Positions 3,092-44,637 of a DNA stretch of 64,000 nucleotides are shown here, in pieces. The notes beneath the pieces are model-generated. The model searched no databases. It saw only the letters and a program-made list of their open reading frames with translations, and was not told the origin of the DNA. The position numbers and the translations under genes were made by a program. The stretch comes from a candidate division WOR-3 bacterium. GTDB lineage: Bacteria; Hydrothermota; UBA3072. The first letter of the stretch is position 1, and each line of letters begins with the position of its first letter. Location: positions 2,377 to 66,376 of the forward strand of contig JAGLZA010000024.1 of NCBI GenBank assembly GCA_023131835.1, in the 5' to 3' direction.

Positions 3092-6000
3092 CTATTTATA
3101 CTCATAATCCGCTCCTCTATCTTCCTCTTTTTCGCCATATCCAAATTCTTCAGCAGCAATTCCAAAAATCTTTACTACTGCATAGATATAGATAATCACT
3201 GCCATAATTACCAGCAATAAACCTGCAAACTCGAACTCCAGGAGAGCTTCGGATATGTAACACTGGTAGCCGAGCATAAGGAATATTGTGGGTGAAATAA
3301 ACAACATAACTATATCCATATAGAAATCATACCCTACTTCTAACAAACCCAGCACCAAAAAAATAAATGCTAGCACTACAAAAATCCCAAATATCATACT
3401 TGTTCCTATCATTTCGTTCTCCTCAATTAATTGTTTATTTTGGTTATATATAAAGGTTAGTTGTTCTAATATATCTCCATACTCTTCCTCACCAATTGTT
3501 ACAGTCCACGTGACCGTGTTTGAAGTTCCGTTTGTGTTCGTCCCATAGACAGAGACGGTTTTCGTGCCATTTGATGTCCAATTTAAAGTTATGTTATCAT
3601 AATTATGATTTTGATCTATCCCATCCTTTTTCCAAGTCCATGTAATTATGGTTTGGTCTGCTACTGCACTAAAGTTTATTGCTGCTTGAGAAAGATTAAC
3701 TTGAAAACTTATTACACCGTCACCCGTAATGTTATTGTACCACGAAGTAATTGAAGGAGCAGCTACCGATTCGGTTAGTGTGATATTCTGATTGGTTTTA
3801 TCCACCCCGTTTACTGTTACTGTCGTTGAATTTGGTATGTATCCATCCTTGGTTGCGGTTAGAAGATAAGTATCGTTTGCTATACCTTCCAGTTTGTAAT
3901 ATCCTGTTGCATCAGTGTTATCATTTACGCCTGTTAGATTGTTCGTTACATGTGCCGTTTGAAGCGGTGCTCCCGTTGTATTTATCACGTAACCGCTAAT
4001 ATTATAAGTAACAAGAGGAACACCAATTTCAAATGTACCTGTTACCCAACTACTAAATTCGTAATTATCTTTTGTTCTTACTTGAACATAATAAGTTATT
4101 CCTTCACTTAAACCTGAACCAGCATAAGTTGCTGATGTAGCTGAGCTTGCTACTTGTCCGCTGTTCCACATATCGCTTGCACCCACATCTAACCCTACAT
4201 AAACCTGATAATGAGATTGTGTATCTCCTTCATCATCGGAATATGTCCACGAAAAATCGGGAGTATAATCACTTATGTCTGTTGGATTAGTTTGTCCTTC
4301 TGTCAAAAGGTTTGTTGTCATAGGTTCACTATTCATTCTAAATTCATCAGCAGTAGTATAATTACTCCACAATGAACCATCATAACTTCTCAATCTGTAA
4401 TAATAGGTTGTTCCGTCGGAAAGGGGTATAGTATTGCCCAAATTACATGTCTCACTTGTTGTATGCGTTTCGTTATCAGTCGGAGTGCTGGTTGTTCCTA
4501 CATAAACATAAGTTGTAACGGTATCACCATCTGCATCTGTACCTTTAGTCCATGTAATAGTTGGTGTGTGGTCAGTTAGATTCATACCTAAATCAGTCCA
4601 TCCTGTTGGTACGGTAGGTGCATTATTAGGTATCTGTGTGTTCTGTGAAATAAATGAAGATAAATTCCCAGTAGTAGCGTTATATCCAGCAACTGATATG
4701 TTACTCCATACGTGAGGCAATAAACCCGTATTATTGTAATATGTATTTGATGAGTCATTTGTCCAGCTATTATTTACTGAAACATTAAAAGTATCTGTAT
4801 TTATTCCTGTGTCCCAAGTATGATTTATCCAAAAATTACCAGTTGTATTTTGAAGGTTAGTTGGTGTCCCAGGTTCCGCACCACTTACCGTTATAGTCAT
4901 AGTGTAATTATCATAGCTACCATAACCGTCTGATACACCAAAATCAACATAATAAATACCTTCTACCGAAGTCCAGTTGCCTATCCCTGTTACAGTAGAA
5001 AAATCTGTAAACAAATCAGTTCTATTACATGAGAATGTTGGGGTATCGCTATCAGTATCTGTAGCATCATAATCTACATAAACATTTTGAGTTTTAAATC
5101 CAGTCCAATCTGAAATATTTGTTATTGTTATTGGATTGTTTGGTATTTGAACATTGTCCGATACATTTCCAGAACTTAATGTTCCGTTATCGCTGGAATT
5201 AAATGCCCATACACTGATATTAGACCACCCGTGTGGACTCATCCCAGAGCCATTGTAAAATGTATTTGTAGTGTTGTACCATGAATTGTTTACAGAAACA
5301 TTATAACTATCCGTTACGTAACCATCACTTCCATTATCCCATGTGTGATTAACATAAAAATTACCTGTAGTGTTCTGGAGATTTATCGGATCAGGTGGTG
5401 TAAATATTAATACAGTAACATTACTATAAGTTGGTGTTGTTGCATTAAAATAATGTGTTGTGTTGTAAAATCTAACAGTGTAATTATAAATACCTGCTGT
5501 ACTTTCGTTCCACGTAAAATTAACATAATCAACAACAGAAGAATTAGTACTTATAATATTTCCATCTTCTAATAGGTCTGCTAAACCGTAGAACGTGTCA
5601 CTATATTCCTCTATTAGACTTGCATTGATAAAGAAATCAACATTCTTACCAACGGATTGAGTACCATTACTATCCATAGTTGCAGTATTGTTTCTTTTCG
5701 TTATCTCATAATAAAATGAAGATGTGTCGTTATTAGCACTTGGAGTACTAGAATTTAAGTAGATTGTCACAGAAACATTAGTAACTGGTGAACCTACATT
5801 GTGTGATTCATTTGCCCATTCATCAAGGGTCAGATTCAAGTTTCCGAAACTTTTATTAGTAAATTCTGCATTAGTAAAATTCATCCAGACATTTGAGGCG
5901 TTGGCTACAGTTACATCTGCTGAAAAGTTTGAACTCCAATCTTGCCCCCAATCTTGTTTAACATTGGAGACGTTGCCTATTGTTAGAACAGGTGGTAAAA

Positions 6001-9000
6001 CTGTTACATTACTATAGTTCGAGGTTGTGACATTATTATAATGTGTTAGATTATAAAAACGAACTGTATAGTTATAAGTACCGACTGAACTTTCATTCCA
6101 TGTAAAGTTAACATAGTCAATAATTGATGAATTAGTTGAGATGACTGATCCATCCTCTAATAAATCCGCTGCACCGTAAAAGGTATCACCATACTCTTCT
6201 ATTAGACTCGCATTAATAAAGAAATCTCGATAGATTCCTATGTTTTGCGTAGCATTACTATCCATAGTAGCAGTGTTATTTCGTTTTGTAATTTCATAGT
6301 AAAACGATACCGTACCATTAATACTGCCAGGAGTACTCGAATTTAGAGAAACATTTACTGAGATATTAATAATGGGTGATTCGATATTATGTGACTCATT
6401 TACCCATTCATCAATAGAAGTATTAAGCCATCCTAAGCTGGTATTTGTAAAGTTATTATGTGAAAAATTCATCCAGGTATCTTTAGCATTTTGTCCAAGA
6501 ACATGGGCACTGAAATTTGAGTTCCAGTCTTGACCCCAGTCTTTTTTTATATTTTGCTCACCACTGATAGTGAGCGAAAGTGTAGGTGGATTAATTGTAA
6601 AATTAACATCTAACCATGTTATTGTACTAACACCTTCATCATCAGTAGCGTTTACTTGTAGTGTGAAATTATCAACTTCAGAATAGTAAGAAGAACTATC
6701 AAATGATATATTAATAAACATATTATCTCTCATAGTATCATTAAAAGTATTATTTATGATTGCAACAAAAGTTCTGTTTCCGTAGTGTAAAGTGAGGTTG
6801 TGTGATACATCTCCATCATCTGGATCTGATGCCAGTGCAATTCCAATATCAAAAGTCCCTGAATATGTATGATTCATCTCTAGATCTTTCTCGTCTTGGT
6901 AATAAAAATAAACAATACCAGGCTTTGTGGGTGGAAAGTAAGCCTTCTCTATATCAGTTGTATTTATTGTACTGTTTGTCCATGTTCCAACATTATCAGC
7001 AATATAAAGTTGATGTTTGAACTGATGTCCTCTATGTCTGTCTGAAACAAATGCATTTGTTGTATATAGATTCTCAATTAAAGGAGCATTATCACCTATC
7101 CAAGTTACATTACATTCACCAAAGGTACGGTTTGTTGAGGTAGGATCATTTGTCATATTCAAAGAATAAGGTTTCGATTGGGATGTTTCTGTATTAAAGC
7201 ATACCCACGCAGTGTTTGTTGTATTAATACCAGCATCTACAATAGCTGATTGATTTATGCTAAATGCTTTGATATAAGATGAATTTCTAACATTATATAA
7301 ATAATCAACCCATGTACTTGCATTATGTTCAGTTACAAAGAATCCATAAGGTGAATCTTCTGGATTTACAGAACCTTCTGGATCATAGCTACTATTTAGA
7401 TAATATAAAAAGATAGGCTTACTTGGCACACTTCCACCAAAATGAGTATCTAAGTAGAAGTTAAAAAGATAATCATGGTGATCATAGAATGTCTCTAAAT
7501 TCCATATTTTAATACAAGGTCTGCTACTCTTATGAATATCTAAATTCGTCATTGTAGCATTTTGTTGCTCTTCTCTATTTAGATACCACATATTTATAGA
7601 TGCAGTATCTCTTATAGTTCCATTCCAGTGGATTAAGGTATATGTGGAGTTTACAGGTTCAATAGTTAGTCTTGTAGTATTCTCATCTCCACCTCCCCAT
7701 TCATATACGTTTCCTCTTGTAATAGTTGCATTATCTTCAAAATTTAGTGTATAATTTCGATTATCTGCTCTTAAAATGTGCTCTCCTATTATAAATTCTA
7801 ATGCACTACGGTTATTAGATGGAACTCGTATGGAGTGGTTATATGTACCATCTATTGGATTATAAACAGTATAGATAAATGAAACTGAAGTATTATTCAG
7901 ACCACCGCTACCATGACTAATACCATAAGTAATATTCAAATTTCCAGTTGAATTTTGGTATAAAATAGAAGGGTCTTGTGATAGGAGGGTTATTGTGGGT
8001 GGCGGGATAGTTACATTACTATAAGTCGGTGTCGTGGCATTAAAATAGTAAGTGGTGTTATAGAATCTTACTGTATAATTGTACTGTCCAGCAGTACTTT
8101 CGTTATGTGTAAAATTTACATAATCAGTAACAGTGGAATTTGTTAGAACTACTGCTCCGTCTTCAAGTAAATCAGCAGCTCCGTAGAATGTATCCGAGTA
8201 TTCTTCATTAAGAGTAGCGTTGATAAAGAAGTCTTGATCAGTGTATGACATACTTTGTATAGCGGCACTATCCATTGTGGCTGTGTTGTTTCTCTTGGTA
8301 ATTTCATAAAAGAAGGTGTCACTATCATTTGCAGCTCCTAAAGCAGTTGATGTTAATTCCACAGTAACGGAAACATTAGTAACTGGAGCAGTGACATTAT
8401 GGGATTCATTTACCCATTCATCCAGAGTGCGATTTAACCATCCCAAACTTGTATTTGTAAATTCGGCATTGGTAAAGTTCATCCATACCTCGGATGCATT
8501 TGCCCCTGTTACATTAGCACTAAAATTGGAGTTCCAGTCACGCCCCCAATCTTCCTCATAGTTCTGAATGTTACCAGTTGTTAATGTTGGTCCTACAACA
8601 GTCACATTTGAATACCCAGAAGTAGTATTATCATAGTGAGTAAGATTATAAAACCTTACGGTATAATTGTAAACACCTACGGTGCTTTCGTTCCACGTGA
8701 AATTAACATAATCAACTATGGATGAATTAGTGGATATAGTTACGCCATCTTCTAAGAGATCCGCTGCACCATAGAATGTGTCTCCATACTCCTCATTACA
8801 AGTGGCATTAATATAGAAATTATCGTTTATACCTACGGTTTGCGTTGCAGAAGAATCCATCGTAGCGGTATTGGTTCGATTGGTTATCTCATAATAGAAG
8901 GTATCAGTATCGTTGGTTACTCCAACAGTGGTTGAATTAAGGTAAATTGTTACTGAGATGTTTGTTATTGGAGTATCAATATTATGTGATTCGTTCACCC

Positions 9001-10648
9001 ATTCATCTATAGTAAGATTTAAGTTACCTAAGCTGGTGTTTGTGAAGTCAGTATGAGTAAAGTTCATCCAAACATTTGAGGCATTGGCAACTGTAACATT
9101 TGCTGAGAAGTTTGAGCTGAAGTCTTGTCCCCAGTCGTGTTTATAGTTTTGGATGTTGGATGTTGTTAGGGTTGGTACTGCTGATGATTCTTCAGTGCCA
9201 GTGTAAGTGGTTGGCTCTGGCGAGGCGTATTTGCGGACGAGAACTTGATCCAAATAAGCAACATAAGTACTACCACCATATAGGCAGGAATAATAAAATT
9301 TATCGAATTGAATTAATGATTCATATAATACCTCTCCACCTGAAAGCTTGCTATCTCCATCCACCAGGATGTCATAATAAGTATCGTCCACTCCTGTTGC
9401 TTTTACCTCTATTTCATACCATTGATTTGCGGAAATACTTTGTAATAACGTCTCCCCACCATTTGTATAATAATATATTTGAGTACCTGCATTAAATAAA
9501 ATTCCAGCGTCTCCCTGCCCACCCGATTTAATATCTTCGCCCACATGGATACTTGAATATCCTGAAGTTCCCATTCTTGCCCAACACTTAAACGCTATCC
9601 CAGCGGTAATCGGAGAAAAGGAGTGATATGCATATAAACCCGGTGAGCCTGATTGTTGTCCTGTATCGTCAAGTTTCAAACTCTTCGTGCCGAATTTCGC
9701 GTAATCGTCCGAAACTCTTATGGTTCCTACATCATCATTACATGTCCAACCAGATGGGCAATTACCAACTGTTCCATCCTCAAAATCATCAAAGAACTCA
9801 AAGGTGTTGGTGCCGTTGGAGGCGGAACTCGCAGAAGGGTTGCCATAGTACATCTCCGTGGTGTCATTTGACCATCCCCCACCAGCGATGTAGGTGCCAT
9901 TGAACCACACCAAGCACCAGTTGCTGTCTGACTTGTCTTCGATCCAATACGCCTCCTCCGTGCCAGCGGATACATTCACAAAGCGCAAATCGTCAAAATC
10001 CACCTGCATATCTGCATCATAGGTGACATTGAGTGACACCTGATAATGCGACAGAGCGGAGCCACCCGTGTTATTGATACAGACGGGGGCTTTCTTTGTC
10101 CAGGTGGCGTTCCACCATGTCAATTCAGATCCCTCAATCCCTCCAAACATCGGAATGGTCTGAATAGAAAAAGCACCAATCTCTGCCTTCTTATGAAACA
10201 CCAGCTTTAAATTATACACTTCATTAGTTTTTATAGTTTTTCCATGTGGGTTGAATTGTTTCCAATGATACTTTGTTTCCTCATTTTGATTAATTATAAT
10301 ATTATAAGGTTTTTCAACAAACCATTCTACATAATCAATACTATTTCTGCCTTTATGCTTTATCCACCGTGTTTTGAAGTCACTTGAATCATTAAATGTG
10401 TAATCAACATAAGACGTGAACGTATAATATTCTGTAAAAGTTGTTAAGCCAGATTCTGTTTTAGTTAGTTGTATCTTAGTTTCAAGTTTATCGCGAAATA
10501 TAAAATTATCCTTATAGATAGATATGGTCTTTGATTCGGGATTAAATTGTTTATAGTGTGTGGTATCGCTAAATATACCTGCTTGGACAGGCGAAATTAG
10601 CAAAAATGCTATAAGTGCAATTATCCCGATTGCTATTATTTTTCTCAT
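3092..10648 (-). CDS. Giant (2518 aa) secreted, heavily N-glycosylated surface/adhesin-like protein with internal repeats and a multi-TM C-terminal anchor.
   Basis: Signal peptide MRKIIAIGIIALIAFLLISPVQA. NxS/T sequons are very dense. Four copies of a ~196-aa repeat are present. Further domains are FN3/PKD-like (NxTW...FNVSVNNSW), a CarbopepD_reg-like segment (GYVINTTGAPL...TDATGYYKLEG) and an acidic calcium-site-like stretch. The C-terminus has several hydrophobic helices. Confidence 0.85.
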   Translation of the reverse strand: MRKIIAIGIIALIAFLLISPVQAGIFSDTTHYKQFNPESKTISIYKDNFIFRDKLETKIQLTKTESGLTTFTEYYTFTSYVDYTFNDSSDFKTRWIKHKGRNSIDYVEWFVEKPYNIIINQNEETKYHWKQFNPHGKTIKTNEVYNLKLVFHKKAEIGAFSIQTIPMFGGIEGSELTWWNATWTKKAPVCINNTGGSALSHYQVSLNVTYDADMQVDFDDLRFVNVSAGTEEAYWIEDKSDSNWCLVWFNGTYIAGGGWSNDTTEMYYGNPSASSASNGTNTFEFFDDFEDGTVGNCPSGWTCNDDVGTIRVSDDYAKFGTKSLKLDDTGQQSGSPGLYAYHSFSPITAGIAFKCWARMGTSGYSSIHVGEDIKSGGQGDAGILFNAGTQIYYYTNGGETLLQSISANQWYEIEVKATGVDDTYYDILVDGDSKLSGGEVLYESLIQFDKFYYSCLYGGSTYVAYLDQVLVRKYASPEPTTYTGTEESSAVPTLTTSNIQNYKHDWGQDFSSNFSANVTVANASNVWMNFTHTDFTNTSLGNLNLTIDEWVNESHNIDTPITNISVTIYLNSTTVGVTNDTDTFYYEITNRTNTATMDSSATQTVGINDNFYINATCNEEYGDTFYGAADLLEDGVTISTNSSIVDYVNFTWNESTVGVYNYTVRFYNLTHYDNTTSGYSNVTVVGPTLTTGNIQNYEEDWGRDWNSNFSANVTGANASEVWMNFTNAEFTNTSLGWLNRTLDEWVNESHNVTAPVTNVSVTVELTSTALGAANDSDTFFYEITKRNNTATMDSAAIQSMSYTDQDFFINATLNEEYSDTFYGAADLLEDGAVVLTNSTVTDYVNFTHNESTAGQYNYTVRFYNTTYYFNATTPTYSNVTIPPPTITLLSQDPSILYQNSTGNLNITYGISHGSGGLNNTSVSFIYTVYNPIDGTYNHSIRVPSNNRSALEFIIGEHILRADNRNYTLNFEDNATITRGNVYEWGGGDENTTRLTIEPVNSTYTLIHWNGTIRDTASINMWYLNREEQQNATMTNLDIHKSSRPCIKIWNLETFYDHHDYLFNFYLDTHFGGSVPSKPIFLYYLNSSYDPEGSVNPEDSPYGFFVTEHNASTWVDYLYNVRNSSYIKAFSINQSAIVDAGINTTNTAWVCFNTETSQSKPYSLNMTNDPTSTNRTFGECNVTWIGDNAPLIENLYTTNAFVSDRHRGHQFKHQLYIADNVGTWTNSTINTTDIEKAYFPPTKPGIVYFYYQDEKDLEMNHTYSGTFDIGIALASDPDDGDVSHNLTLHYGNRTFVAIINNTFNDTMRDNMFINISFDSSSYYSEVDNFTLQVNATDDEGVSTITWLDVNFTINPPTLSLTISGEQNIKKDWGQDWNSNFSAHVLGQNAKDTWMNFSHNNFTNTSLGWLNTSIDEWVNESHNIESPIINISVNVSLNSSTPGSINGTVSFYYEITKRNNTATMDSNATQNIGIYRDFFINASLIEEYGDTFYGAADLLEDGSVISTNSSIIDYVNFTWNESSVGTYNYTVRFYNLTHYNNVTTSNYSNVTVLPPVLTIGNVSNVKQDWGQDWSSNFSADVTVANASNVWMNFTNAEFTNKSFGNLNLTLDEWANESHNVGSPVTNVSVTIYLNSSTPSANNDTSSFYYEITKRNNTATMDSNGTQSVGKNVDFFINASLIEEYSDTFYGLADLLEDGNIISTNSSVVDYVNFTWNESTAGIYNYTVRFYNTTHYFNATTPTYSNVTVLIFTPPDPINLQNTTGNFYVNHTWDNGSDGYVTDSYNVSVNNSWYNTTNTFYNGSGMSPHGWSNISVWAFNSSDNGTLSSGNVSDNVQIPNNPITITNISDWTGFKTQNVYVDYDATDTDSDTPTFSCNRTDLFTDFSTVTGIGNWTSVEGIYYVDFGVSDGYGSYDNYTMTITVSGAEPGTPTNLQNTTGNFWINHTWDTGINTDTFNVSVNNSWTNDSSNTYYNNTGLLPHVWSNISVAGYNATTGNLSSFISQNTQIPNNAPTVPTGWTDLGMNLTDHTPTITWTKGTDADGDTVTTYVYVGTTSTPTDNETHTTSETCNLGNTIPLSDGTTYYYRLRSYDGSLWSNYTTADEFRMNSEPMTTNLLTEGQTNPTDISDYTPDFSWTYSDDEGDTQSHYQVYVGLDVGASDMWNSGQVASSATSATYAGSGLSEGITYYVQVRTKDNYEFSSWVTGTFEIGVPLVTYNISGYVINTTGAPLQTAHVTNNLTGVNDNTDATGYYKLEGIANDTYLLTATKDGYIPNSTTVTVNGVDKTNQNITLTESVAAPSITSWYNNITGDGVISFQVNLSQAAINFSAVADQTIITWTWKKDGIDQNHNYDNITLNWTSNGTKTVSVYGTNTNGTSNTVTWTVTIGEEEYGDILEQLTFIYNQNKQLIEENEMIGTSMIFGIFVVLAFIFLVLGLLEVGYDFYMDIVMLFISPTIFLMLGYQCYISEALLEFEFAGLLLVIMAVIIYIYAVVKIFGIAAEEFGYGEKEEDRGADYEYK
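5400..6580 (-). repeat. Second tandem pair (copies 3-4) of the same ~590-bp coding repeat. Boundaries are approximate.
   Basis: Protein repeats ...NIKKDWGQDWNSNFSAHV... and ...NVKQDWGQDWSSNFSADV.... The offset from copies 1-2 is about 2.6 kb. Confidence 0.55.
8000..9180 (-). repeat. Tandem pair (copies 1-2) of a ~590-bp intragenic coding repeat in the 2518-aa gene. Boundaries are approximate, +/-60 bp.
   Basis: Protein repeats begin NIQNYKHDWGQDFSSNFSANVT... and NIQNYEEDWGRDWNSNFSANVT.... The antisense track ORFs 8316..8561 and 5799..6017 give similar translations, which confirms DNA-level repetition. Confidence 0.6.
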
Positions 10649-10907: not shown

Positions 10908-11774
10908 TTAATTTTTATTCACCTCCTTTGGTATGAAACACTTACCATCAGTTAGATAGTTTAGACTTACGGTGAAAAACTCTTCCCAATATTTGCGGTC
11001 TTTTTGGGTTTTTGCGTGACAACTTATGCATAGGGGTACGAACAATGGTTTCACGTCATTACAACATACCATCTTGTCGTAGCTTACGTGGTAGACCGAA
11101 AGATGCCGTCTGTTTTCTGTTTCGTTCTTACCACATATATAACAGCATCTATCAAAGAAATTGCGAACTCGTTCTCTGAGGTCATCATCAAATTTTATAC
11201 AGTAAGGCTCAAATGAGATGCCTCCTTTCCATGAAGAATGATTTTTGCCTCTATTATTTTCATCTAACCATTGTTGACCTTCTTCTGTAGCATAAAATTC
11301 AGTTTTAGTTTTACTGCTTTTTTCAGCTGCTTTCCTAATTCCTTCATCTGTCTCTTTAGTTTTACCATGCATATGATTATTTTCACCTAATTGAGCTTTA
11401 CTCTGCTTCTGCTTAGCCTCTTCTGTTTGGTGCTTACCAAACATAGGATGGTCTTTGCCATATCTATGAACACCAAACATAGGATGGTCTTTACCTGTAG
11501 GATATTTACCAAACCTTGGATTATCTTTACCAGTTTTTCCATAATTTGGATGATTTTTACCTGAATTATCCCAATGATTATCTCTCAATTTTTGTTTATA
11601 ACTATCTGATACTAATAAAGCATCTGGAAACTGTTCTCTATACTCACTCATAGTTGTACCATGTGTTTTGAGGTGAGTATTTGTAATTTGCTCAAATTCC
11701 TCACCACAAATTTTACATCTAATTCTTATTGTTCCCTTAATAAATTTACTATCTAAAGTTTGTTGATTACTCAT
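10908..11774 (-). CDS. HNH homing-endonuclease-like protein (HNH-2), paralog of 2262..3083.
   Basis: N-terminus RCKICGEEFEQITNTHLKTHG. G-K-rich NUMOD3-like repeats follow. The C-terminal HNH module CCYICGKNETENRRHLSVYHVSYDKMVCCNDVKPLFVPLCISCHAKT is nearly identical to HNH-1 and HNH-3. Confidence 0.8.
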   Translation of the reverse strand: MSNQQTLDSKFIKGTIRIRCKICGEEFEQITNTHLKTHGTTMSEYREQFPDALLVSDSYKQKLRDNHWDNSGKNHPNYGKTGKDNPRFGKYPTGKDHPMFGVHRYGKDHPMFGKHQTEEAKQKQSKAQLGENNHMHGKTKETDEGIRKAAEKSSKTKTEFYATEEGQQWLDENNRGKNHSSWKGGISFEPYCIKFDDDLRERVRNFFDRCCYICGKNETENRRHLSVYHVSYDKMVCCNDVKPLFVPLCISCHAKTQKDRKYWEEFFTVSLNYLTDGKCFIPKEVNKN

Positions 11775-12350: not shown

Positions 12351-13073
12351 TTAGTACGACCTCGATTTGAAAAATGAATACAAAATCCCCGCAAGCGAAA
12401 TATAAAACAACGACCTCGCAGGCGTCTGATACTCAATCGGTAAGAAAAAGAACATCGAGCTGCTAACTAATAACCCTAAGATAGTCGGTATTATTACGCT
12501 TTCTTGTTTGATGAACGAGACAATGAATGGGATCGAAAAGATAAATAACCAGAAGATACCTCCAACCTTTTCAGTGTAAAACGCAGGTATCATGTTAATA
12601 AACGCACCTGTATCTATTCTACTGCCTTCGTAACACCCTTCGTCGGTTTTGTTGTATCCGCTGTAGTTCTTCCAGATGCTTGTGTAATCCTTATCAAATG
12701 GAACGATGTCTGCTAATGTGCAGAATTGCCAGTAACTACCACTAGTAAAATTACCCGTATCGTTGTCCCATGCAACTATCTTCCAGCAGTAGCATTTGCC
12801 TTTATCTGAATCTCCTGCCAGAGATGGGTCGTATACGGTGCTGGTTTGGTTCGGCGAGACTATATTATCCGGTGTAGTTCCCTTAACAAAGTAAACATCG
12901 TAGGTGGTGTTGGTAACACCGCCTCCTATCCATGTAAGATTTACGGGTATGGGAACATTGGTTTGTCCATTAAAGGGGGAGGGGTTGGTGGGCTTGTTAG
13001 GAAGGGCTGCATTAACAACGCAGACTAACATTAGAGTTATGCAGAATCCGAATAGGATGGTTTTTTTATTCAT
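12351..13073 (-). CDS. Secreted/membrane FN3-like glycoprotein (the track ORF 12351..13115 is probably over-extended; likely start MNKKTILFG).
   Basis: Signal-peptide-like ILFGFCITLMLVCVVNA. An FN3-like segment with sequons (NLTWIGGGVTNTTYDVYF) follows. The C-terminus has TM helices. The start overlaps the upstream stop as ATGAATAA. Confidence 0.55.
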   Translation of the reverse strand: MNKKTILFGFCITLMLVCVVNAALPNKPTNPSPFNGQTNVPIPVNLTWIGGGVTNTTYDVYFVKGTTPDNIVSPNQTSTVYDPSLAGDSDKGKCYCWKIVAWDNDTGNFTSGSYWQFCTLADIVPFDKDYTSIWKNYSGYNKTDEGCYEGSRIDTGAFINMIPAFYTEKVGGIFWLFIFSIPFIVSFIKQESVIIPTILGLLVSSSMFFFLPIEYQTPARSLFYISLAGILYSFFKSRSY

Positions 13074-13440
13074 AATGCTTGATGGAACGATTAAATAGTA
13101 GTTGGATACCTCCAAGGAAGTAGATTACCCAAATCCCCGTCTGCATTATCGCAACCAACGCAAGCGGCATCCCGAGCTTTTCGAATAGGATAGGAGCTAT
13201 CCAGACAATACCAAGCAAACCTCCTGTAATTAGCTGGAGTCCACTTACGAGCATCGATCCCATTGAGAACTGTTCATCATATTTTGTGATGTCTCCAGAG
13301 GGATCATAGCCTGTTAGTTTCTCTATTTCAGCTGTCTGGTCTTCTAAAGCAAGTTGTGTGGGGAACATCTCAAGAGAATCAACAAGTCCAATACAACTCG
13401 TCAACAAAATACAAAAAAGTGCAAGATCGTATGCCTTCAC
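13066..13440 (-). CDS. Small membrane protein (124 aa).
   Basis: N-terminal signal/TM and a C-terminal hydrophobic segment. Sits between the Vsr-like gene and the FN3-like gene. Confidence 0.45.
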   Translation of the reverse strand: MKAYDLALFCILLTSCIGLVDSLEMFPTQLALEDQTAEIEKLTGYDPSGDITKYDEQFSMGSMLVSGLQLITGGLLGIVWIAPILFEKLGMPLALVAIMQTGIWVIYFLGGIQLLFNRSIKHYE

Positions 13441-14654
13441 CGCTCTCCCTCCTTCTTTTCACTATCTACCCACCTATCTAATATTTTTTGAGGGATTACA
13501 TAATCACTCTCTTTTCCGTGAAATTTTAAGATCTTTTGTATCATTGTATCTCTATTTTTAAGTTCGTGTTCCCAAATTACTAATAGATCCCATCCGCATT
13601 TTTTAAATAAGTCTATTCGTATTTGTGGATCTTCTCCTTCATGCCAATAATCGCCAAATAAGTCGATAGCTTTTTTCTTTCCGTTTACGTTTACGAAATC
13701 AGGGATTTTACCGCCTATAGATATTCCCAAATCGTAGTTTCCGTTGTATTTGTATTCGTTAGGGATTAGGTTTTGGACTATACTGTCTGTATCTTTTTCT
13801 GGTTGTGTTGGCTTTCTATTATAAACACCTTTTTTAAGGTTTTCAATTATAATTTCTCTTAAATTTTGTCTGTGCTTTATTCCTTTTTCAGTCTGATAAT
13901 ATTCCTTTTTTGCCTTACTCATCATTTTGATAAATTCTGGGTCTTGCCAGTTTTCAAGCATTCTTTTACTTCGTTTTAAACCTTGTTCCTTTAACAATAA
14001 CTTACCTTCTTCTGTCTGATAAAAAACAATCTTTTTTTTACTTATTATCTGTTTAGATTCGTCTGTATGTTTATGACCAAAAAAATGATTTGCTTCTCCC
14101 TTAGTATCCATAACACTTAATGTTTTTTTAATTTTTTCTATTGTCTCTTCTGTTTGATTTTTTCCATAAAATGGATTTCCTTCTCCACTATATTTTTCAT
14201 TTTTTTGTTCCTTAAGCTTAATACCTTCTTCTGTTTGATAAAAACTTAGTAATGACTCACTAACTTGCATTAATCCTGGATCAGTTTCTTTTGTTTTTCC
14301 TTTACACCATACTTCATCAATTTCACCGTTTACATACCTTTCTTTATAAGTTTCACCTTGTTTCTTTACTCTATCATCATTTTCTTTAGTTAATCCTTTG
14401 TTCCATGCAACCCTACCTCTGTTTTGATGTCCAGCAATATATTTACTCCCTTTCCTAGATACCCTTCCACCACAACCACATTTGCAAAAAGGTAGTTCTG
14501 GTGGTAGTCTTTTGCCTTCTTTAATTTCTTTGTTTATTTTACGTGTTTCATTTCTCTTTCTTTTTATTTCTTCTGTAAGAATATAATGTCCCTGTATAAA
14601 TCTTCTTCCAGGACTTGCATATCCTCCGCATCCACATTCACATAATTTTTTCAT
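13437..14654 (-). CDS. Vsr-like (PD-(D/E)xK) endonuclease with N-terminal double zinc ribbon and NUMOD3 repeats (Vsr-1).
   Basis: The N-terminus has CECGCGG...GHYI and CKCGCGG...GHQNRGR. Repeated YQTEEG...NPFYGK.HTEE units (NUMOD3-like) follow. The C-terminus reads IDLFGDYWHEGED...GWDLLVIWEHEL, which resembles the Vsr/DUF559 nuclease core. The gene starts about 40 nt after the 1521-aa gene. Confidence 0.75.
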   Translation of the reverse strand: MKKLCECGCGGYASPGRRFIQGHYILTEEIKRKRNETRKINKEIKEGKRLPPELPFCKCGCGGRVSRKGSKYIAGHQNRGRVAWNKGLTKENDDRVKKQGETYKERYVNGEIDEVWCKGKTKETDPGLMQVSESLLSFYQTEEGIKLKEQKNEKYSGEGNPFYGKNQTEETIEKIKKTLSVMDTKGEANHFFGHKHTDESKQIISKKKIVFYQTEEGKLLLKEQGLKRSKRMLENWQDPEFIKMMSKAKKEYYQTEKGIKHRQNLREIIIENLKKGVYNRKPTQPEKDTDSIVQNLIPNEYKYNGNYDLGISIGGKIPDFVNVNGKKKAIDLFGDYWHEGEDPQIRIDLFKKCGWDLLVIWEHELKNRDTMIQKILKFHGKESDYVIPQKILDRWVDSEKKEGER

Positions 14655-14693
14655 ATTTATTACTCTATTTTTATTATATATAAACCTTATGTT

Positions 14694-17600
14694 TTACGAA
14701 GCCAGATTTTTCTCCCTCCCTGTCGTAGTTATAAAAACTGCAATGCCCAGTGCGGTAGCAATTCCAAGCAATATCGCACCTGTTATAAGATTATCTGTAG
14801 GACTAAACCAGCCTATTCCAAAGAGGATCCACCCTCCTAAAGGAAGTAGAACAGCTCCAATTTTCAGGGTTGTCCCAGAAAAAAGAAGACCCCCAAAAAT
14901 AAGAAGTCCGACGCTCAATAGTTGGTAATATCCTGGATGATCCTCCCACCCAGCAAAACTAATTAGCGGATGGTTATACCGAAAGAACACAGACACCGAT
15001 TCCCCAAACTCTCCAGCCGTTGTATGAGTTACATTAAATCTCATAATGTATGTTTCCCCTCTGTAATCATCCTTATGAATAGGACAACTATAATTCCAAA
15101 CATTGTCATCAATGTTAACAGGTCCACAACAATAAGTAAAATTGCTTAAATTAAGCTTCTCTATACCTGTTGTCTTATTTACCGTATATACATAGTAACT
15201 ACCTGGTGAACTTGTTCCACTTATCGTATTGTTATACGTAAAATTCAGAAAAGCATGGGTATCATTCTTTTCCATTGTGAAATTCCATTTAATCTGCTCA
15301 CCAAACAGTTGAGGTTCAACATCAAAGAATCCCGTCCTACCCACTATCACGATGTATCGTTCTTCTTTTGGATAGATAGTTAGTGTTTCGTTTACGTCGC
15401 TACCTTTAGTAAAAGTCATTGTATATTTGATTGTCTCAACCATCAAAAACGTAATACTTCCTGTTGAATCGGTCGTTCCGTTCATGGTGGTGTTTCGGAG
15501 TGTATCACTACCATCTGGCGTAAATCCCAAAAACTCCCACAACCAGTCCCATGAACCCATTGATATTTGGATACCAATCGCTATTACATTTACGTCAGAA
15601 ATGGGATTACCATAAATGTCTTGAACCCGAAATTCAACTAAATGAGGTGGATACTGTAAAGCAGGACCCTCTTTCTCTTCTAACATATATATAGTTTGAG
15701 AAGTGTCTTGTCCAATAAAAATATACTCTGTATGTGTATAATACCCTTCTGTACTTACTTGAAGACGATATATACCGTATGTAATATTTCTGAATACTAT
15801 AGTACCGTTTGTGGTTTCACTTTGTATCTTATTAAACACAGCACTAAAACTGGTAATGATATTATAAGTTTCCAAGTCTTTTACGTCTATCGTAAGACTA
15901 AAATATTCACTCATTAAAATATTATGATACGTTCTACCTCTTTCTACTACTTGTATATTATCTATCCATCTCTTATAGTTAGAATCAAAAGTTTGTGAAC
16001 CAAACATTATTTCAAACCATTCGAGACCGTCTGTAGTAAAATTATTATCATAAGCATCAACAAAATATAATCTTCTTAAGTTCCAATCAGTTCCTACAGA
16101 AACATTATCCCAATACATGTATCCATAGTCACCACCTGAGTAGTTTTCGTAGTCTACTGTATAGTTATACTCCTCTTTTTTTGATACTAATACATAATCA
16201 AGAGATGTAATATACGGTTTTTCCCAAAATTCAATTCGGCTCAGCTCACCAGTTTTTGAAATATCCGAAGCATCAATTGGTGAAAGAAAATATTTAGCGA
16301 GATATCCATCTTCATATCCGCTTCCACCAGCTCCTTCTCCATATATAGAAGCAGTACCTTCCTTCTTATTTGTTGTATCTGCAGATAAATCAAGACAGTT
16401 AGTATCCCATCCCACCCACATAATAAAATGTAAATCATCTATTTTTGTTGTTACACTACCTGATTTAGTACTTTTCCATTCAAAATAGTTTATTTCTGAT
16501 AAATTACATGTTCCTACTTCTGTACCTTCTGATAATAAGAGTGCTGTCATGTTCCAATATGTCTCAAAAACATCTTTATTCACTTCCCATGCGATTGTAT
16601 TGGTACTATTATCTCCATTTGATCCAATTGTAATTGTTATGTTTGTACTACTTATATTTGCTTTATTCAATATTTGTGAATAGAAATAGAGTAATCCATG
16701 CACTTTGGATACTTTTGAATCTATCGGTGTTATAAAAGTCTTCATAAAATCTATTGTATTGTCTCCTGTTGAATTCAATGCTCCTGTTCCCTCTATAAAA
16801 TCAGTATCTACTAAATTAGGATTACCTATTTTGTATTGATAAGAGATATTATAATTTGTATCATTTTCCATACTACCTGTGCAGATTATCTGAATTTTCC
16901 CATCTGTATAATTAATTTTATAATCTGTATCCTTTACAAAAGTGGTTGTGATATTTGTAACTGTTTCTGAGCTTGAACGTAAATCAACATGGTTTAATTG
17001 TACCCATGAGCTATTACACGTACCACTATCAAATGAGTCATTAAAAATAGAAGCATTACCCCAATAACCATTATTTGTTAATGAATCGCACTTATCCAAT
17101 GTAGTATTATAAAAATTTGCTACATCACAATTATCTAATATATGAATTGCATCATGTGCACGAACAGATTCGCTTGGACTACGTCCAAATCCTGTCCTTG
17201 TAGCATATAGATTATATGAACTATCTCCTAGTCCATCAGGATAATCAAAAATGTAATATCCCCATGTATTTGACAGAGTAGTATCACTCCATGTATCATT
17301 AGCAATATGAACAGTTGCGTATGATACTGGTTGGTATAGAGGTGTATCCAGCACTACACCAGCAATTGAGGATTTTCTGGTTTCAGAGTCGCGATGAGAT
17401 GGATATAAATATAGATTTATGTCATACGTACCAGATCGAATTATTTCAGTCGTATAGTTATTATGTTGATAGGTTATACTAACTCCACTTCCGCTAGTAT
17501 ACTCATACGTATATGTAATAGTATATGAAGTGTTTAATTCCATCGTACCTGTTGAAACTCTCTTAATCTTAACATTTGAATAATCTATTACGTAATCAAT

Positions 17601-19259
17601 ACCATATGTAAAGTTATGTGTTCCATTATAGACTTGTTCGTTTGGTATTGCAAATATTGCTGAACCATTCACCAATTGTATCCATTCTCCATCTGAAGTA
17701 TTAAATGATTCAGTTGTAGTTAGAGTGCCATATGTAGATGAACCACCAGCGTTTACTTGAATTGGAACATCTGTATAAAATGACATTTCTTCACTTGTTA
17801 CTGGATCAAGAAACTCGTAATAACCATTCGCGTCAGTAGTGTCTTTGTACCATTGATTGTTATGATACATACTAACACTCATGTTAGATAGTGTTGTGCC
17901 ATCTACTAAGTTAAGAGGGTTGGTAGCATCATAGCATGTTCCTCGTATAAACACTGCATCAGTCATATATGTATAAGCATATGCTAAGTCAACTATATCT
18001 GTTGGAGGCGACATGTCAATATTAGGTTCTGTATCTTTAACCAAAACTGCAAATGCTGTCCCTACATCCCACGTAATGGTTGAGGTGAAATTGACATATC
18101 CATCCTCTGTAAATACTTCCTGTTCGCCTACTTGCTCGTAGCTACTATCAAATATTCGTACGTAATAATCATTGGCACCAAAATCAGGGGTATCAATATG
18201 ATATGATATATCTACAGTGCTTCCAATTGCGTACTCAGTTAATGCAAAATCAATCCAACTAGCTTGACCTAATTCTTTGAAGAATAACCAATCAGTTGCA
18301 ATTGGCTCTTCTTCAGTACTTTTATATAATTGAAATGAGTATAATCCATAATGGTCAGTTTGAAATAGTTTTGTCCAATTATAAACCACAAATCCAGTAG
18401 GTTTTTGTGTAGCATTTCCTGCGTCTTTTACAATTGTTGTGTTGTAATATTCATCGTACGTTAATCGTTTTACTTTTATTGTATATTCTGCAGCAGTGTA
18501 AGAGGCTTCTGGGATGGTTTTAACTGCCCAGGAAATATCTAATTCGTCATTATCTAATTCTGTTATTGTGTGATTTCTGAACGTTCCAGTACTACAAGGT
18601 TCTGCTCCTATTCCTATTATTCCTGAAGATGTCGTTATATCATCAATATGAAAGTCCCACGCACCCCAAATGTAACCATTTGCTTTAATTCTCATATAAT
18701 AAGGAGTCGCTTCACATACTCCAATATTACCCCTATTAATTCCATTAATATATAAGTATACATTACCGCCTTCATAAATCAATTCCCAACGGCTGTTGGA
18801 ATACGAGACAGCATAATCTCTCATATCATCACTAATAAAGATCTGATTGCTTTCTTTATCATAGAAATATATATATAAATGTGAGGATGTAGTAAAATCG
18901 GTATCACGAAAAGTAAATGCCCAGTAATCACTAATAGTGGGTTTAATATTGGTTATATTTGCATAAGGATAATTCGAACCAACCGCATACATACGTATTG
19001 AACTTGAATAAGAATACCCACCTGATGGGGTTATGATTGATGCAATAGAACCTGATGCACTAAATAACCATAAATCCGTTAAATCATCTACATCACCAAA
19101 CCCATCCCCATCCATATCCCAATGATTCTGCACAGTATCTTCAAATCCAGCAGCTCCACTAACCAATACCAAACATACTAATATTCCAACAACTATTGCT
19201 AACTTCATACTACAATTTCTGATTTTATTATTACTCGTTGTTGTAGTGAGTATATTCAT
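14694..19259 (-). CDS. Giant (1521 aa) secreted N-glycosylated surface/adhesin-like protein with a multi-TM C-terminal anchor.
   Basis: Signal/TM at KLAIVVGILVCLVLVSGAAG. A calcium-site-like HWDMDGDGFGDVDD follows. Sequons are dense. CarbopepD_reg-like segments include GTCYDATNPL...TDANGYYEF. The C-terminus has several TM helices. Confidence 0.85.
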   Translation of the reverse strand: MNILTTTTSNNKIRNCSMKLAIVVGILVCLVLVSGAAGFEDTVQNHWDMDGDGFGDVDDLTDLWLFSASGSIASIITPSGGYSYSSSIRMYAVGSNYPYANITNIKPTISDYWAFTFRDTDFTTSSHLYIYFYDKESNQIFISDDMRDYAVSYSNSRWELIYEGGNVYLYINGINRGNIGVCEATPYYMRIKANGYIWGAWDFHIDDITTSSGIIGIGAEPCSTGTFRNHTITELDNDELDISWAVKTIPEASYTAAEYTIKVKRLTYDEYYNTTIVKDAGNATQKPTGFVVYNWTKLFQTDHYGLYSFQLYKSTEEEPIATDWLFFKELGQASWIDFALTEYAIGSTVDISYHIDTPDFGANDYYVRIFDSSYEQVGEQEVFTEDGYVNFTSTITWDVGTAFAVLVKDTEPNIDMSPPTDIVDLAYAYTYMTDAVFIRGTCYDATNPLNLVDGTTLSNMSVSMYHNNQWYKDTTDANGYYEFLDPVTSEEMSFYTDVPIQVNAGGSSTYGTLTTTESFNTSDGEWIQLVNGSAIFAIPNEQVYNGTHNFTYGIDYVIDYSNVKIKRVSTGTMELNTSYTITYTYEYTSGSGVSITYQHNNYTTEIIRSGTYDINLYLYPSHRDSETRKSSIAGVVLDTPLYQPVSYATVHIANDTWSDTTLSNTWGYYIFDYPDGLGDSSYNLYATRTGFGRSPSESVRAHDAIHILDNCDVANFYNTTLDKCDSLTNNGYWGNASIFNDSFDSGTCNSSWVQLNHVDLRSSSETVTNITTTFVKDTDYKINYTDGKIQIICTGSMENDTNYNISYQYKIGNPNLVDTDFIEGTGALNSTGDNTIDFMKTFITPIDSKVSKVHGLLYFYSQILNKANISSTNITITIGSNGDNSTNTIAWEVNKDVFETYWNMTALLLSEGTEVGTCNLSEINYFEWKSTKSGSVTTKIDDLHFIMWVGWDTNCLDLSADTTNKKEGTASIYGEGAGGSGYEDGYLAKYFLSPIDASDISKTGELSRIEFWEKPYITSLDYVLVSKKEEYNYTVDYENYSGGDYGYMYWDNVSVGTDWNLRRLYFVDAYDNNFTTDGLEWFEIMFGSQTFDSNYKRWIDNIQVVERGRTYHNILMSEYFSLTIDVKDLETYNIITSFSAVFNKIQSETTNGTIVFRNITYGIYRLQVSTEGYYTHTEYIFIGQDTSQTIYMLEEKEGPALQYPPHLVEFRVQDIYGNPISDVNVIAIGIQISMGSWDWLWEFLGFTPDGSDTLRNTTMNGTTDSTGSITFLMVETIKYTMTFTKGSDVNETLTIYPKEERYIVIVGRTGFFDVEPQLFGEQIKWNFTMEKNDTHAFLNFTYNNTISGTSSPGSYYVYTVNKTTGIEKLNLSNFTYCCGPVNIDDNVWNYSCPIHKDDYRGETYIMRFNVTHTTAGEFGESVSVFFRYNHPLISFAGWEDHPGYYQLLSVGLLIFGGLLFSGTTLKIGAVLLPLGGWILFGIGWFSPTDNLITGAILLGIATALGIAVFITTTGREKNLAS

Positions 19260-41766: not shown

Positions 41767-41792
41767 ATAAATTATATATTAGACCTCATAGT

Positions 41793-41802
41793 ATATAAAG
41801 GT
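41793..41802 (-). promoter_or_regulatory. Putative archaeal-type TATA box (CCTTTATATA on the minus strand) about 30 nt upstream of the 40384..41766 start.
   Basis: A TTTATATA-like element at the typical distance, with a short leader lacking SD. Confidence 0.3.
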
Positions 41803-41815
41803 TTAATTTAAATAT

Positions 41816-42874: not shown

Positions 42875-42877
42875 TTT

Positions 42878-43894: not shown

Positions 43895-44637
43895 TTTTTC
43901 CTACAAACAAAATAATATCCTCCAACTTGAGACTTAAAAAGACAAGCTAAATAATTCATCACCTTAAATCCAATATTAAAACTGGAAAAAAATGTGTTCA
44001 TTATTGTAAGTGGAAAGAAAAACCCATCATACATTACTTTTTCCATCTGAAAACCACTTTTTCTTATTTTCTCTCTAATAATATCTTCCTTATAAAAATT
44101 AACGTGGTCAGTTATTTTTTGTATATATGGTTGAAATAGTCTATTCCGACATTGAGCCATAAAACATCCTTCATTTGGCACACCTAAGATTAGTATCCCT
44201 CTATTTCTTATACTGTTATAAAGATTATCTAAAACCTTATCATCCTCTTCTATATGCTCTAACACCTGACTACATAACACTATATCAAATTTATCTTTTA
44301 TATATAAGTTAGTTAAATCTCCCTTAAATATTTTTGCCTGTGGATACTCCATCTTTGCCCTTTCAACTCGTACAGGATTATAATCTACACCATAAATCTC
44401 CAATCCTTTTAATTTAGATAAGATATTTAGGTGAACACCATCACCACAACCAGCATCCAAAATTTTTAGCTGAATATCCTTTTTTTGACAAGTCTCTATA
44501 ACTGAAATAATAAAATCCCATCTTTTTTTAATGCTACGTTTGGTAGACTTATCAAATATCTGTTTCATCTGAGGGCTTACATACCATGAATTACCATTAT
44601 CTATCTTTTCTTTAATACCTTTTTTTATGTTAGTCAT
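43891..44637 (-). CDS. Class I SAM-dependent methyltransferase.
   Basis: LDAGCGDGVH. DIVLCSQVLEHIEE. Confidence 0.65.
   Translation of the reverse strand: MTNIKKGIKEKIDNGNSWYVSPQMKQIFDKSTKRSIKKRWDFIISVIETCQKKDIQLKILDAGCGDGVHLNILSKLKGLEIYGVDYNPVRVERAKMEYPQAKIFKGDLTNLYIKDKFDIVLCSQVLEHIEEDDKVLDNLYNSIRNRGILILGVPNEGCFMAQCRNRLFQPYIQKITDHVNFYKEDIIREKIRKSGFQMEKVMYDGFFFPLTIMNTFFSSFNIGFKVMNYLACLFKSQVGGYYFVCRKK

What the first reader, a model, noticed from the sequence alone, without database searches (positions are those of the whole stretch)
13437..14654. Unusual fusion: double zinc ribbon + NUMOD3 repeats + Vsr-like PD-(D/E)xK nuclease (three paralogs)
Vsr is a mismatch-nicking repair endonuclease that normally stands alone. 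Here a Vsr/DUF559-like core (..GDYWH.....GW.L.VIWE.E/D..) is fused to two CxCGCGG...GHxxRG zinc ribbons and several NUMOD3-like units (NPFYGK.HTEE, YQTEEG). NUMOD3 units are otherwise typical of GIY-YIG and HNH homing endonucleases. The paralogs are at 13437..14654, 25044..26114 and 33117..34094. To my knowledge this architecture is not a commonly described nuclease family.
Basis: inference. Interest (0 to 1): 0.7.

Follow-up and report, generated by a model that had tools for sequence, protein, structure and literature searches.

The report
Free-standing Vsr-like (EDxHD) homing endonuclease genes
The three paralogous genes encode selfish "homing" nucleases of the already described EDxHD (Vsr-like) family, with zinc and NUMOD3 DNA-binding modules in front. 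They sit between the genes of an uncultivated virus-like element, so the fusion is real but is not a new kind of enzyme.

Summary
All three ORFs exist and are clear paralogs. Each has two N-terminal CxCxC-x13/14-H zinc modules, a helical repeat region, and a C-terminal nuclease domain. Pfam NUMOD3 passes its cut-off in W1 and W3.

The claim that the architecture is undescribed is wrong. N-terminal NUMOD modules (including NUMOD3 tandems) fused to a C-terminal Vsr-like nuclease define the EDxHD family (Dassa 2009; Taylor 2011).

The context fits mobile free-standing genes. The window holds three more endonuclease genes (MucR zinc finger + NUMOD3 + HNH). In three related contigs the flanking genes are mostly 50-97% identical, the endonucleases only 44-54%. 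Endonuclease genes occupy different intergenic slots, and one relative lies inside an intein.

The modestly new element is the zinc module. It has no Pfam model, occurs in 3,456 protein clusters, and is paired with several nuclease folds.

Verdict: new member of a known kind, with low to moderate interest.

The parts
13437..14654 (-). W1: 405-aa free-standing EDxHD-type homing endonuclease gene (the finding). It is identical to NCBI MCK4526001.1, annotated 'hypothetical protein'.
   Evidence: ORF; identity. Its end overlaps the start of the downstream 124-aa gene (13066..13440) by 4 bp. A 39-bp spacer separates it from the upstream 1521-aa gene.
14586..14642 (-). W1 zinc module 1 (aa 5-23, CECGCGGYASPGRRFIQGH): a CxCxC-x13-H motif.
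   Evidence: AlphaFold block-mean pLDDT is 84-90, with a short beta-hairpin.
14427..14486 (-). W1 zinc module 2 (aa 57-76, CKCGCGGRVSRKGSKYIAGH): a CxCxC-x14-H motif.
   Evidence: AlphaFold block-mean pLDDT is about 91-92.
13830..14411 (-). W1 array of small helical DNA-binding-type repeats (aa 82-275). It contains 2 x WxKGxTKE, 2 x NUMOD3 (FYGKNQTEE, FFGHKHTDE), 3 x YQTEEG units and 1 x WQDPEF.
   Evidence: Pfam NUMOD3 at 34.6 bits; motif map; predicted to be all-helical. There is a weak match to the I-TevI DNA-binding domain 1i3j at aa 183-207.
13515..13820 (-). W1 Vsr-like (EDxHD) nuclease domain (aa 279-380). Predicted catalytic residues are E286, D319 (in PDF), D331, H338 (in GDYWH), D342 and E362 (in IWE).
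13440..13514 (-). W1 C-terminal tail (aa 381-405), with a predicted helix at aa 389-404. It is conserved in the W1 subgroup and absent from W2 and W3.
25044..26060 (-). W2: 338-aa paralog with a corrected start. Zinc modules at aa 4-22 and 60-79; catalytic D265, E277, H284 and E316.
26061..26093 (-). Short remnant ORF (MKDIKGFFWEM*) upstream of W2. It resembles the 5' end of the small gene that follows the large gene in contig L082, and is a possible footprint of the endonuclease gene's insertion.
Evidence: Alignment and blastn.
33117..34094 (-). W3: 325-aa paralog. Zinc modules at aa 4-22 and 70-89; catalytic D251, E264, H271 and E303.
   Evidence: Pfam NUMOD3 at 23.0 bits.
10908..11774 (-). 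Companion endonuclease gene of a second architecture: MucR/ROS-type zinc finger + NUMOD3 + HNH-like C-terminus (CCYICG..VYHVSY..CISCH).
2262..3083 (-). Companion endonuclease gene: MucR/ROS zinc finger + NUMOD3 + HNH-like C-terminus.
36052..37005 (-). Companion endonuclease gene: MucR/ROS zinc finger + NUMOD3 + YQTEEG-type units + HNH-like C-terminus.

Best explanation
W1, W2 and W3 are free-standing homing endonuclease genes of the EDxHD (Vsr-like) family. They live as selfish insertions between the genes of an uncultivated, probably viral and possibly archaeal, element.

Proposed mechanism (inferred from characterised relatives):
- The long N-terminal array (two C3H zinc modules, NUMOD3 and other short helical units) lies along an extended DNA target and positions the protein.
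- The C-terminal Vsr-like PD-(D/E)xK domain cuts DNA with a metal ion held by the PDF aspartate and neighbouring acids, with the GDYWH histidine assisting. It probably acts as a dimer, as I-Bth0305I does.
- The target is expected to be the endonuclease-free allele of the same intergenic region in a co-infecting relative.
- Repair from the endonuclease-carrying genome then copies the gene, together with some flanking sequence, into the cut genome.

Shown here: the fold, the intact catalytic residues, the modular architecture, module shuffling, and variable gene positions between relatives.
Inferred: DNA cleavage, the target sites, dimerisation and zinc binding.
For: - Catalytic residues. E286, D319 and H338 are invariant in 64 homologs. 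E286, D319, H338, D342 and E362 are identical in all three paralogs. They correspond to Vsr D51, H69 and D97 and to I-Bth0305I D196, H213 and D222.
- Architecture. N-terminal NUMOD modules with a C-terminal Vsr-like domain match the published family.
- Module shuffling typical of homing endonucleases. All four combinations of {CxCxC-H module or MucR finger} with {Vsr-like or HNH} occur among homologs.
- Mobility signatures. Flanking genes are mostly 50-97% identical to those of contigs L001, L082 and L083, but the endonucleases only 44-54%. W3 lies before the 123-aa gene, whereas its L083 counterpart lies after it. W2 lies before the 104-aa gene, whereas L082 and L001 have an endonuclease gene after it, and L001 has a further one a gene later.
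- Other context. Homolog P0083 sits inside an intein. At least 103 IMG/VR viral contigs encode the domain. BFVD structural matches include phage proteins named NUMOD3, DUF559 and 'putative VSR endonuclease'.
- No intron. Rfam gives no match in the window, so the genes are free-standing.
Against: - No biochemical data exist for any member of this subclade.
- No endonuclease-free allele of the W1 slot was found; it is occupied in all three relatives.
- The viral nature of the surrounding block is unproven: 10 neighbouring ORFs gave no PHROG hit, and NCBI bins the contig as a WOR-3 bacterium.
- The published D of EDxHD (I-Bth0305I D222, Vsr D97) aligns one column away from the conserved D342 in the HMM alignment, so that equivalence is only probable.
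- Variable gene order could also arise by ordinary recombination without nuclease-driven homing.
Confidence: 0.8

Rival explanations
1. The proteins are virus-encoded nucleases used mainly as weapons rather than for their own spread. They would cut the DNA of the host or of competing related viruses (exclusion or interference), with their own genome protected by sequence differences at the target.
For: The fold and intact active site are the same as for the main explanation. Six nuclease genes lie within 37 kb of one element. Nuclease genes marking boundaries of exchange between competing phages have been described (PMC10055350, listed). This largely overlaps with homing, since free-standing homing endonucleases cause marker exclusion.
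Against: Nothing separates this from homing with the data in hand. The shifting intergenic positions and low conservation relative to the flanks look like selfish turnover rather than a conserved defence function.
Confidence: 0.12
2. The proteins are Vsr-type mismatch repair nickases that correct T:G mismatches, as some JGI annotations of homologs suggest.
Against: - Pfam Vsr does not match any of the three full proteins, and only 6 of 30 isolated domains match it at all.
- The roughly 23-residue Vsr loop that carries its zinc site is absent (alignment).
- Vsr is a roughly 150-aa stand-alone protein, whereas these carry a 280-aa DNA-binding array.
- No cytosine methyltransferase was seen among the neighbours scanned.
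- There are three divergent copies at shifting positions.
Confidence: 0.03
3. The proteins are domesticated or decaying endonucleases that now act only as DNA-binding proteins, for example as regulators of the adjacent genes.
For: They are tightly packed in the same orientation as the neighbouring genes. W1 overlaps the downstream gene by 4 bp. The DNA-binding array is large.
Against: All predicted catalytic residues are retained in all three copies and across 64 homologs. The nuclease domain is the best conserved part at the DNA level between relatives: 83% for W1 against L001 (an alignment that also runs into the downstream 124-aa gene) and 75% for W3 against L083.
Confidence: 0.05

Closest known systems
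I-Bth0305I (Bacillus phage 0305phi8-36; PDB 3r3p), prototype of the EDxHD homing endonuclease family
   Different: I-Bth0305I is encoded inside a group I intron in recA and has two NUMOD2/HTH units with no zinc module. W1-W3 are free-standing, have two C3H zinc modules plus NUMOD3 and other repeats, and are much longer N-terminally. A tblastn search of GenBank phages with full-length W1 matched only a NUMOD3 patch of a GIY-YIG endonuclease in Sinorhizobium phage phiN3.
Vsr-like free-standing endonucleases of 'fractured genes' in ocean metagenomes (Dassa et al. 2009), and Hef of T4-related phages
   Same: These are free-standing genes with a Vsr-like catalytic domain. Two of them (IMPDH-1 and IMPDH-2) carry tandem NUMOD-3 motifs N-terminal to the nuclease. 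Hef is a free-standing family member in phage genomes.
   Different: Those sit between split-intein halves of replication and repair genes, or replace mob genes in T4-like phages. The ones here sit between structural-looking genes of an unknown element, and carry the CxCxC-H modules, which the keyword searches of those two papers did not turn up.
E. coli Vsr (very short patch repair endonuclease; PDB 1cw0, 1vsr)
   Different: The Vsr zinc-binding loop is missing, the proteins are not stand-alone, and there is no Pfam Vsr match for the full proteins. Repair function is not supported.
I-TevI (GIY-YIG homing endonuclease of phage T4)
   Same: Its DNA-binding region combines a small zinc finger with a NUMOD3 helix. 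The idea that these modules track along a long target is carried over. There is a weak hit of W1 aa 183-207 to 1i3j, and NUMOD3 in I-TevI is described.
   Different: The nuclease domain is different (GIY-YIG) and the domain order is opposite (nuclease at the N-terminus). The statement that the I-TevI zinc finger acts as a distance determinant comes from my own knowledge and was not checked here.
DUF559 / endonuclease-like proteins (PDB 3hrl) and RAP/FASTK domains
   Different: The W1 domain matches DUF559 only at E 0.027, below the cut-off. Those proteins lack the NUMOD and zinc arrays.

Membership tests
EDxHD (Vsr-like) homing endonucleases | Catalytic domain with the Vsr-like PD-(D/E)xK fold, closest to I-Bth0305I | tested here: met
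EDxHD (Vsr-like) homing endonucleases | Conserved E...D...H...D catalytic residues | tested here: met
   W1 has E286, D319, H338 and D342. E286, D319 and H338 are invariant in 64 sequences, and all four are identical in W1-W3. The D342 to Vsr D97 equivalence is off by one column in the HMM alignment, so that one is probable rather than certain.
EDxHD (Vsr-like) homing endonucleases | Bipartite architecture: N-terminal NUMOD-type DNA-binding region, C-terminal nuclease | tested here: met
   Pfam NUMOD3 is above its cut-off in W1 and W3. The order of modules is, and the published architecture.
EDxHD (Vsr-like) homing endonucleases | Residence in mobile contexts (intron, intein, or free-standing gene with variable presence or position) | tested here: met
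   No intron RNA was detected. Endonuclease gene positions differ between the window and L001, L082 and L083 while the flanks are conserved. Homolog P0083 is embedded in an intein.
EDxHD (Vsr-like) homing endonucleases | Site-specific double-strand cleavage of the endonuclease-free allele, by a homodimer | not testable with these tools
   This needs purified protein and substrates. I-Bth0305I gives 2-nt 5' overhangs as a dimer.
Vsr mismatch repair endonuclease (Pfam PF03852) | Match to the Vsr family model at its curated threshold | tested here: not met
   No Vsr hit for any of the three full proteins at E up to 1. Only 6 of 30 isolated family domains hit it, with a best E of 1.3e-4.
Vsr mismatch repair endonuclease (Pfam PF03852) | Zinc-binding loop after the FWH motif | tested here: not met
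   The Vsr segment HHHCYLFKVPATRTEFWLEKIG has no counterpart in the family profile (alignment). W1 reads HEGEDPQIR there. The same loss is reported for I-Bth0305I.
Vsr mismatch repair endonuclease (Pfam PF03852) | Stand-alone protein of about 150 aa, partnered with a Dcm-type cytosine methyltransferase | tested here: not met
   The proteins are 325-405 aa with a 200-280-aa N-terminal array. The neighbours scanned show no DNA cytosine methyltransferase. The methyltransferases at 42878..44637 lie about 9 kb or more from the nearest of the three genes (W3), inside a glycan cluster, and match generic SAM methyltransferase models.
NUMOD3 (Pfam PF07460) | Match above the gathering score of 20.4 bits | tested here: met
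   W1 scores 34.6 bits and W3 23.0 bits. W2 scores only 13.6 bits, below the cut-off.
   The motif is CxCxC-x13/14-H, with three ligands from one knuckle and one distal His. AlphaFold shows short strands only. There is no Pfam zinc-ribbon match, and metal binding was not tested.

The most novel reading that the evidence does not exclude
The CxCxC-x13/14-H unit may be an uncatalogued nuclease-associated modular zinc domain. It has no Pfam model, occurs in 3,456 protein clusters (at 50% identity) with up to 8 matched stretches per protein among the best 150, and is joined to Vsr-like, several HNH, TnsA-like, endonuclease I and endonuclease VII domains. If each unit reads a few base pairs, the arrays would form a new natural modular DNA-recognition scheme. 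The W1-W3 clade may also be the first EDxHD endonucleases seen in archaeal viruses.
Probability: 0.15. Interest if true: 0.6.

Novelty: new member of a known kind. Interest (0 to 1): 0.3.

Why it matters
Its main value is correct annotation. Hundreds of metagenomic proteins of this type are labelled 'hypothetical' or, misleadingly, 'G:T mismatch repair endonuclease'. They should be read as EDxHD-type homing endonucleases.

Six endonuclease genes in 37 kb, sitting in different slots in sister contigs, make this element a good natural case for studying intron-less homing and module shuffling in an uncultivated, possibly archaeal, virus lineage.

The widespread CxCxC-H zinc module deserves a family model and a DNA-binding test. 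Long-target nucleases with separable binding modules are also of practical interest for genome engineering.

Tried and rejected
- Direct Pfam, NCBIfam and PHROG scans of the full proteins gave only NUMOD3 and noise for the nuclease part. A profile of 30 homologous domains was needed.
- Single-sequence phmmer against the PDB gave only a hint: 3r3p at E 0.91. A spurious TPR match in the repeat region was rejected as a compositional or repeat artefact.
- IMG/VR scans with single proteins (W1 and the flanking 124-aa protein) found no relatives.
- tblastn of W1 against 50,697 GenBank phages matched only a NUMOD3 patch of a GIY-YIG endonuclease in Sinorhizobium phage phiN3.
- No tRNA genes and no Rfam families were found, so there is no group I or II intron around the genes.
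- PHROG scans of 10 neighbouring ORFs gave nothing, and further Pfam scans gave no integrase, capsid or terminase. The viral nature of the block therefore rests on indirect evidence.
- The 179-kb Borrarchaeum contig with two family members was checked for synteny with the window and did not rank among the loci sharing window ORFs.
- The Vsr repair reading was considered and rejected (see the membership test).

Full report
**Observation.** They are unmistakable paralogs. W2 and W3 are 44% identical over their full length (E 7e-77), and the N-terminal halves of W1 and W3 are 48% identical (E 1e-50).

One coordinate needs correcting. The GTG at 26114 is only the first possible start of the W2 ORF. 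The real start is the ATG at 26060 (338 aa). NCBI annotates it that way (MCK4526018.1), and DNA similarity to the endonuclease genes of related contigs begins at 26063. All three proteins are 'hypothetical protein' in a MAG labelled candidate division WOR-3, on a 180-kb contig.

**Anatomy.** Each protein starts with two copies of a CxCxC-x13/14-H motif separated by a lysine-rich helix. Across 64 homologs C7 and C9 are invariant, and C5, G8, G10, G22 and H23 are at least 90% conserved. AlphaFold places short beta-hairpins there with block-mean pLDDT 80-93. This is a credible C3H zinc module. No Pfam zinc-ribbon model matches it, so 'zinc ribbon' remains a label and not a finding.

A helical array of short repeats follows. 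In W1 it comprises:
- two WxKGxTKE units;
- two NUMOD3 units (FYGKNQTEE and FFGHKHTDE);
- three YQTEEG units;
- one WQDPEF unit.

Pfam NUMOD3 passes its threshold in W1 (34.6 bits) and W3 (23.0 bits), but not in W2 (13.6 bits). The best NUMOD3 match in W1 (aa 156-175) does not include the YQTEEG unit at aa 138-144, so that unit appears to be a separate repeat. It also occurs in the HNH paralogs described below.

**The C-terminal domain.** The full proteins give no Pfam nuclease hit. I therefore collected homologs (540 at E<=1e-3, all metagenomic) and aligned 30 diverse C-terminal domains. The results were:
- The profile hits the catalytic domain of the homing endonuclease I-Bth0305I (PDB 3r3p) at E 2e-6.
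- It hits E. coli Vsr (1cw0, 1vsr, 1odg) at 3e-4 to 7e-4, and more weakly Bax1 and the DUF559-like 3hrl.
- 16 of 30 domains match Pfam DUF559 and 6 match Pfam Vsr, all weakly.
- An AlphaFold model of the W1 domain (pLDDT 91) gives Foldseek top hits to 3r3p.

The fold is Vsr-like. E286, D319 (in PDF), H338 (in GDYWH), D342 and E362 (in IWE) are identical in all three paralogs. E286, D319 and H338 are invariant in 64 homologs. These residues correspond to Vsr D51, H69 and D97 and to I-Bth0305I D196, H213 and D222. The D342 equivalence is off by one alignment column, so it is probable rather than certain.

**Comparison with what is known.** The Vsr-like fold as a homing endonuclease catalytic domain is published.
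- Dassa et al. 2009 (PMC2677866) described a new family of Vsr-like putative homing endonucleases. They were free-standing between split-intein halves, and also found in introns and inteins. [quoted passage not shown]
- Taylor et al. 2011 (PMC3239194) characterised I-Bth0305I. They showed a bipartite N-terminal NUMOD plus C-terminal nuclease architecture, cleavage as a dimer giving 2-nt 5' overhangs, and loss of the Vsr zinc loop. They named the family EDxHD and added the free-standing Hef proteins of T4-like phages.
- Reviews count EDxHD among the six homing endonuclease families.

W1-W3 meet every family feature I could test: fold, catalytic residues, domain order and mobile context. They fail the features that define the Vsr repair enzyme: the Pfam threshold, the zinc loop, and a stand-alone protein partnered with Dcm. 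The statement that this architecture is not a described nuclease family is therefore not supported. BFVD matches of the full-length model include phage proteins already named 'Nuclease associated modular domain 3', 'DUF559 domain-containing protein', 'DNA mismatch endonuclease' and 'Putative VSR endonuclease'.

**Context and evidence of mobility.** The window holds three further endonuclease-like genes of a second architecture: MucR/ROS-type zinc finger, NUMOD3, and an HNH-like C-terminus (2262..3083, 10908..11774 and 36052..37005). Among homologs, all four combinations of {CxCxC-H module or MucR finger} with {Vsr-like or HNH} occur. Such module shuffling is typical of homing endonucleases.

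Three related metagenomic contigs (L001, L082, L083) share gene order with the window. Flanking proteins are mostly 50-97% identical, whereas the endonucleases are only 44-54% identical. Their positions also differ:
- W3 lies between the 252-aa and 123-aa genes. In L083 those two genes are adjacent, and the endonuclease gene follows the 123-aa gene instead.
- W2 lies between the 1211-aa and 104-aa genes. In L082 those orthologs are adjacent, and the endonuclease gene follows the 104-aa ortholog.
- L001 has endonuclease genes in two slots that are empty in the window.
- L001 lacks the HNH gene present at 10908.

Just upstream of W2 there is an 11-codon remnant resembling the 5' end of the L082 small gene, which may be an insertion footprint. 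The W1 slot is occupied in all three relatives. One homolog (P0083) lies inside an intein. No intron RNA is detected in the window. At least 103 IMG/VR viral contigs encode the domain. MAG contigs carrying it come largely from DPANN, Nitrososphaerota, methanogen and Asgard archaea, and also from CPR, Chloroflexota and Bacillus-group (Bacillales) bacteria.

**What the surrounding element is remains open.** The neighbours are huge NxS/T-rich proteins with CarboxypepD_reg, Ig-like (Ig_Rha78A_N) and DUF2341 domains, plus many ORFs without any Pfam or PHROG match. From 40 kb onward there is a glycan-biosynthesis cluster. Related contig L083 carries an AglB/STT3 oligosaccharyltransferase, which hints at an archaeal setting. 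This is not proof.

**Mechanism (inferred).** The N-terminal array binds an extended DNA site. The Vsr-like domain, probably as a dimer, cuts nearby using the PDF aspartate, neighbouring acids and the GDYWH histidine. The natural substrate is expected to be the endonuclease-free allele in a related genome, and repair then copies the gene in. An overlapping alternative is that the nucleases mainly exclude competing relatives. A repair role and a purely regulatory role are unlikely.

**What is new.** The CxCxC-H module has no Pfam model.
- A 30-position profile of it finds 3,456 clusters (50% identity) at E<=1e-3, and 495 at E<=1e-10. Among the best 150 there are up to eight matched stretches per protein.
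- In 131 top hits, Pfam finds NUMOD3 in 43, DUF559 in 16, MTES_1575 in 9 and Vsr in 4. It also finds several HNH models (14, 10 and 7 hits), DUF6527 in 11, TnsA-like in 2, endonuclease I in 2 and endonuclease VII in 1.

The module therefore behaves as a promiscuous nuclease-associated zinc module. That is a useful annotation gap rather than a new kind of system.

**Verdict.** The genes are new members of the known EDxHD homing endonuclease family, and the finding is of low to moderate interest.

Noticed in passing
window 2262..3083(-), 10908..11774(-), 36052..37005(-): A second trio of paralogous putative homing endonucleases: MucR/ROS-type zinc finger + NUMOD3 repeats + HNH-like C-terminus (CCYVCG..VHHVNY..CxSCH; weak Pfam DUF968). 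With W1-W3 this makes six endonuclease genes in 37 kb.
   Followed up: partly
window 26061..26093(-) and W2 start: An 11-codon remnant ORF (MKDIKGFFWEM*) directly upstream of W2 resembles the 5' end of the L082 ortholog of the 104-aa gene. It may be a footprint of the endonuclease gene's insertion. The GTG ORF start at 26114 is not the real start.
   Followed up: partly
W1 aa 5-23 and 57-76 (window 14586..14642, 14427..14486), and equivalents in W2 and W3: The CxCxC-x13/14-H zinc module has no Pfam model. It occurs in 3,456 protein clusters, with up to eight matched stretches per protein among the best 150, and is joined to at least six different nuclease domain types.
   Followed up: partly
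window 40384..63994(-): A long same-strand cluster of glycan-biosynthesis genes: GT4 glycosyltransferases, radical SAM/SPASM and B12-radical SAM enzymes, SAM methyltransferases, a Wzx/MurJ-type flippase, a FemAB-like protein and asparagine synthase. Related contig L083 carries AglB/STT3. The element may glycosylate its own giant NxS/T-rich proteins.
   Followed up: no
window 3092..10648(-), 14694..19259(-), 26139..29774(-): Three giant proteins (2518, 1521 and 1211 aa). The first two have CarboxypepD_reg domains (the 2518-aa protein also Ig-like and DUF2341 domains) and are rich in N-glycosylation sequons. The third ends in a (PVTP)n repeat and has no Pfam match. None of the 10 neighbouring ORFs tested matched a PHROG family.
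   Followed up: no
L082 19164..20234: A reverse transcriptase gene (RVT_1) lies just upstream of a large CarboxypepD_reg protein in the related contig. It may be a diversity-generating retroelement targeting the receptor-binding-like protein. No reverse transcriptase was seen among the window ORFs that were scanned.
   Followed up: no
window 14677..14684(-): TTTATATA begins 30 nt upstream of the W1 start codon, and no Shine-Dalgarno-like sequence is evident. This looks like an archaeal TATA box with a leaderless transcript, but the region is AT-rich, so chance is not excluded.
   Followed up: no
window 30973..31872(-): A 299-aa protein with an N-terminal C2H2-type zinc finger and a Walker A-like GHRGKGKS motif, 93% identical to its L083 ortholog. 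It is a candidate packaging or replication ATPase of the element.
   Followed up: no
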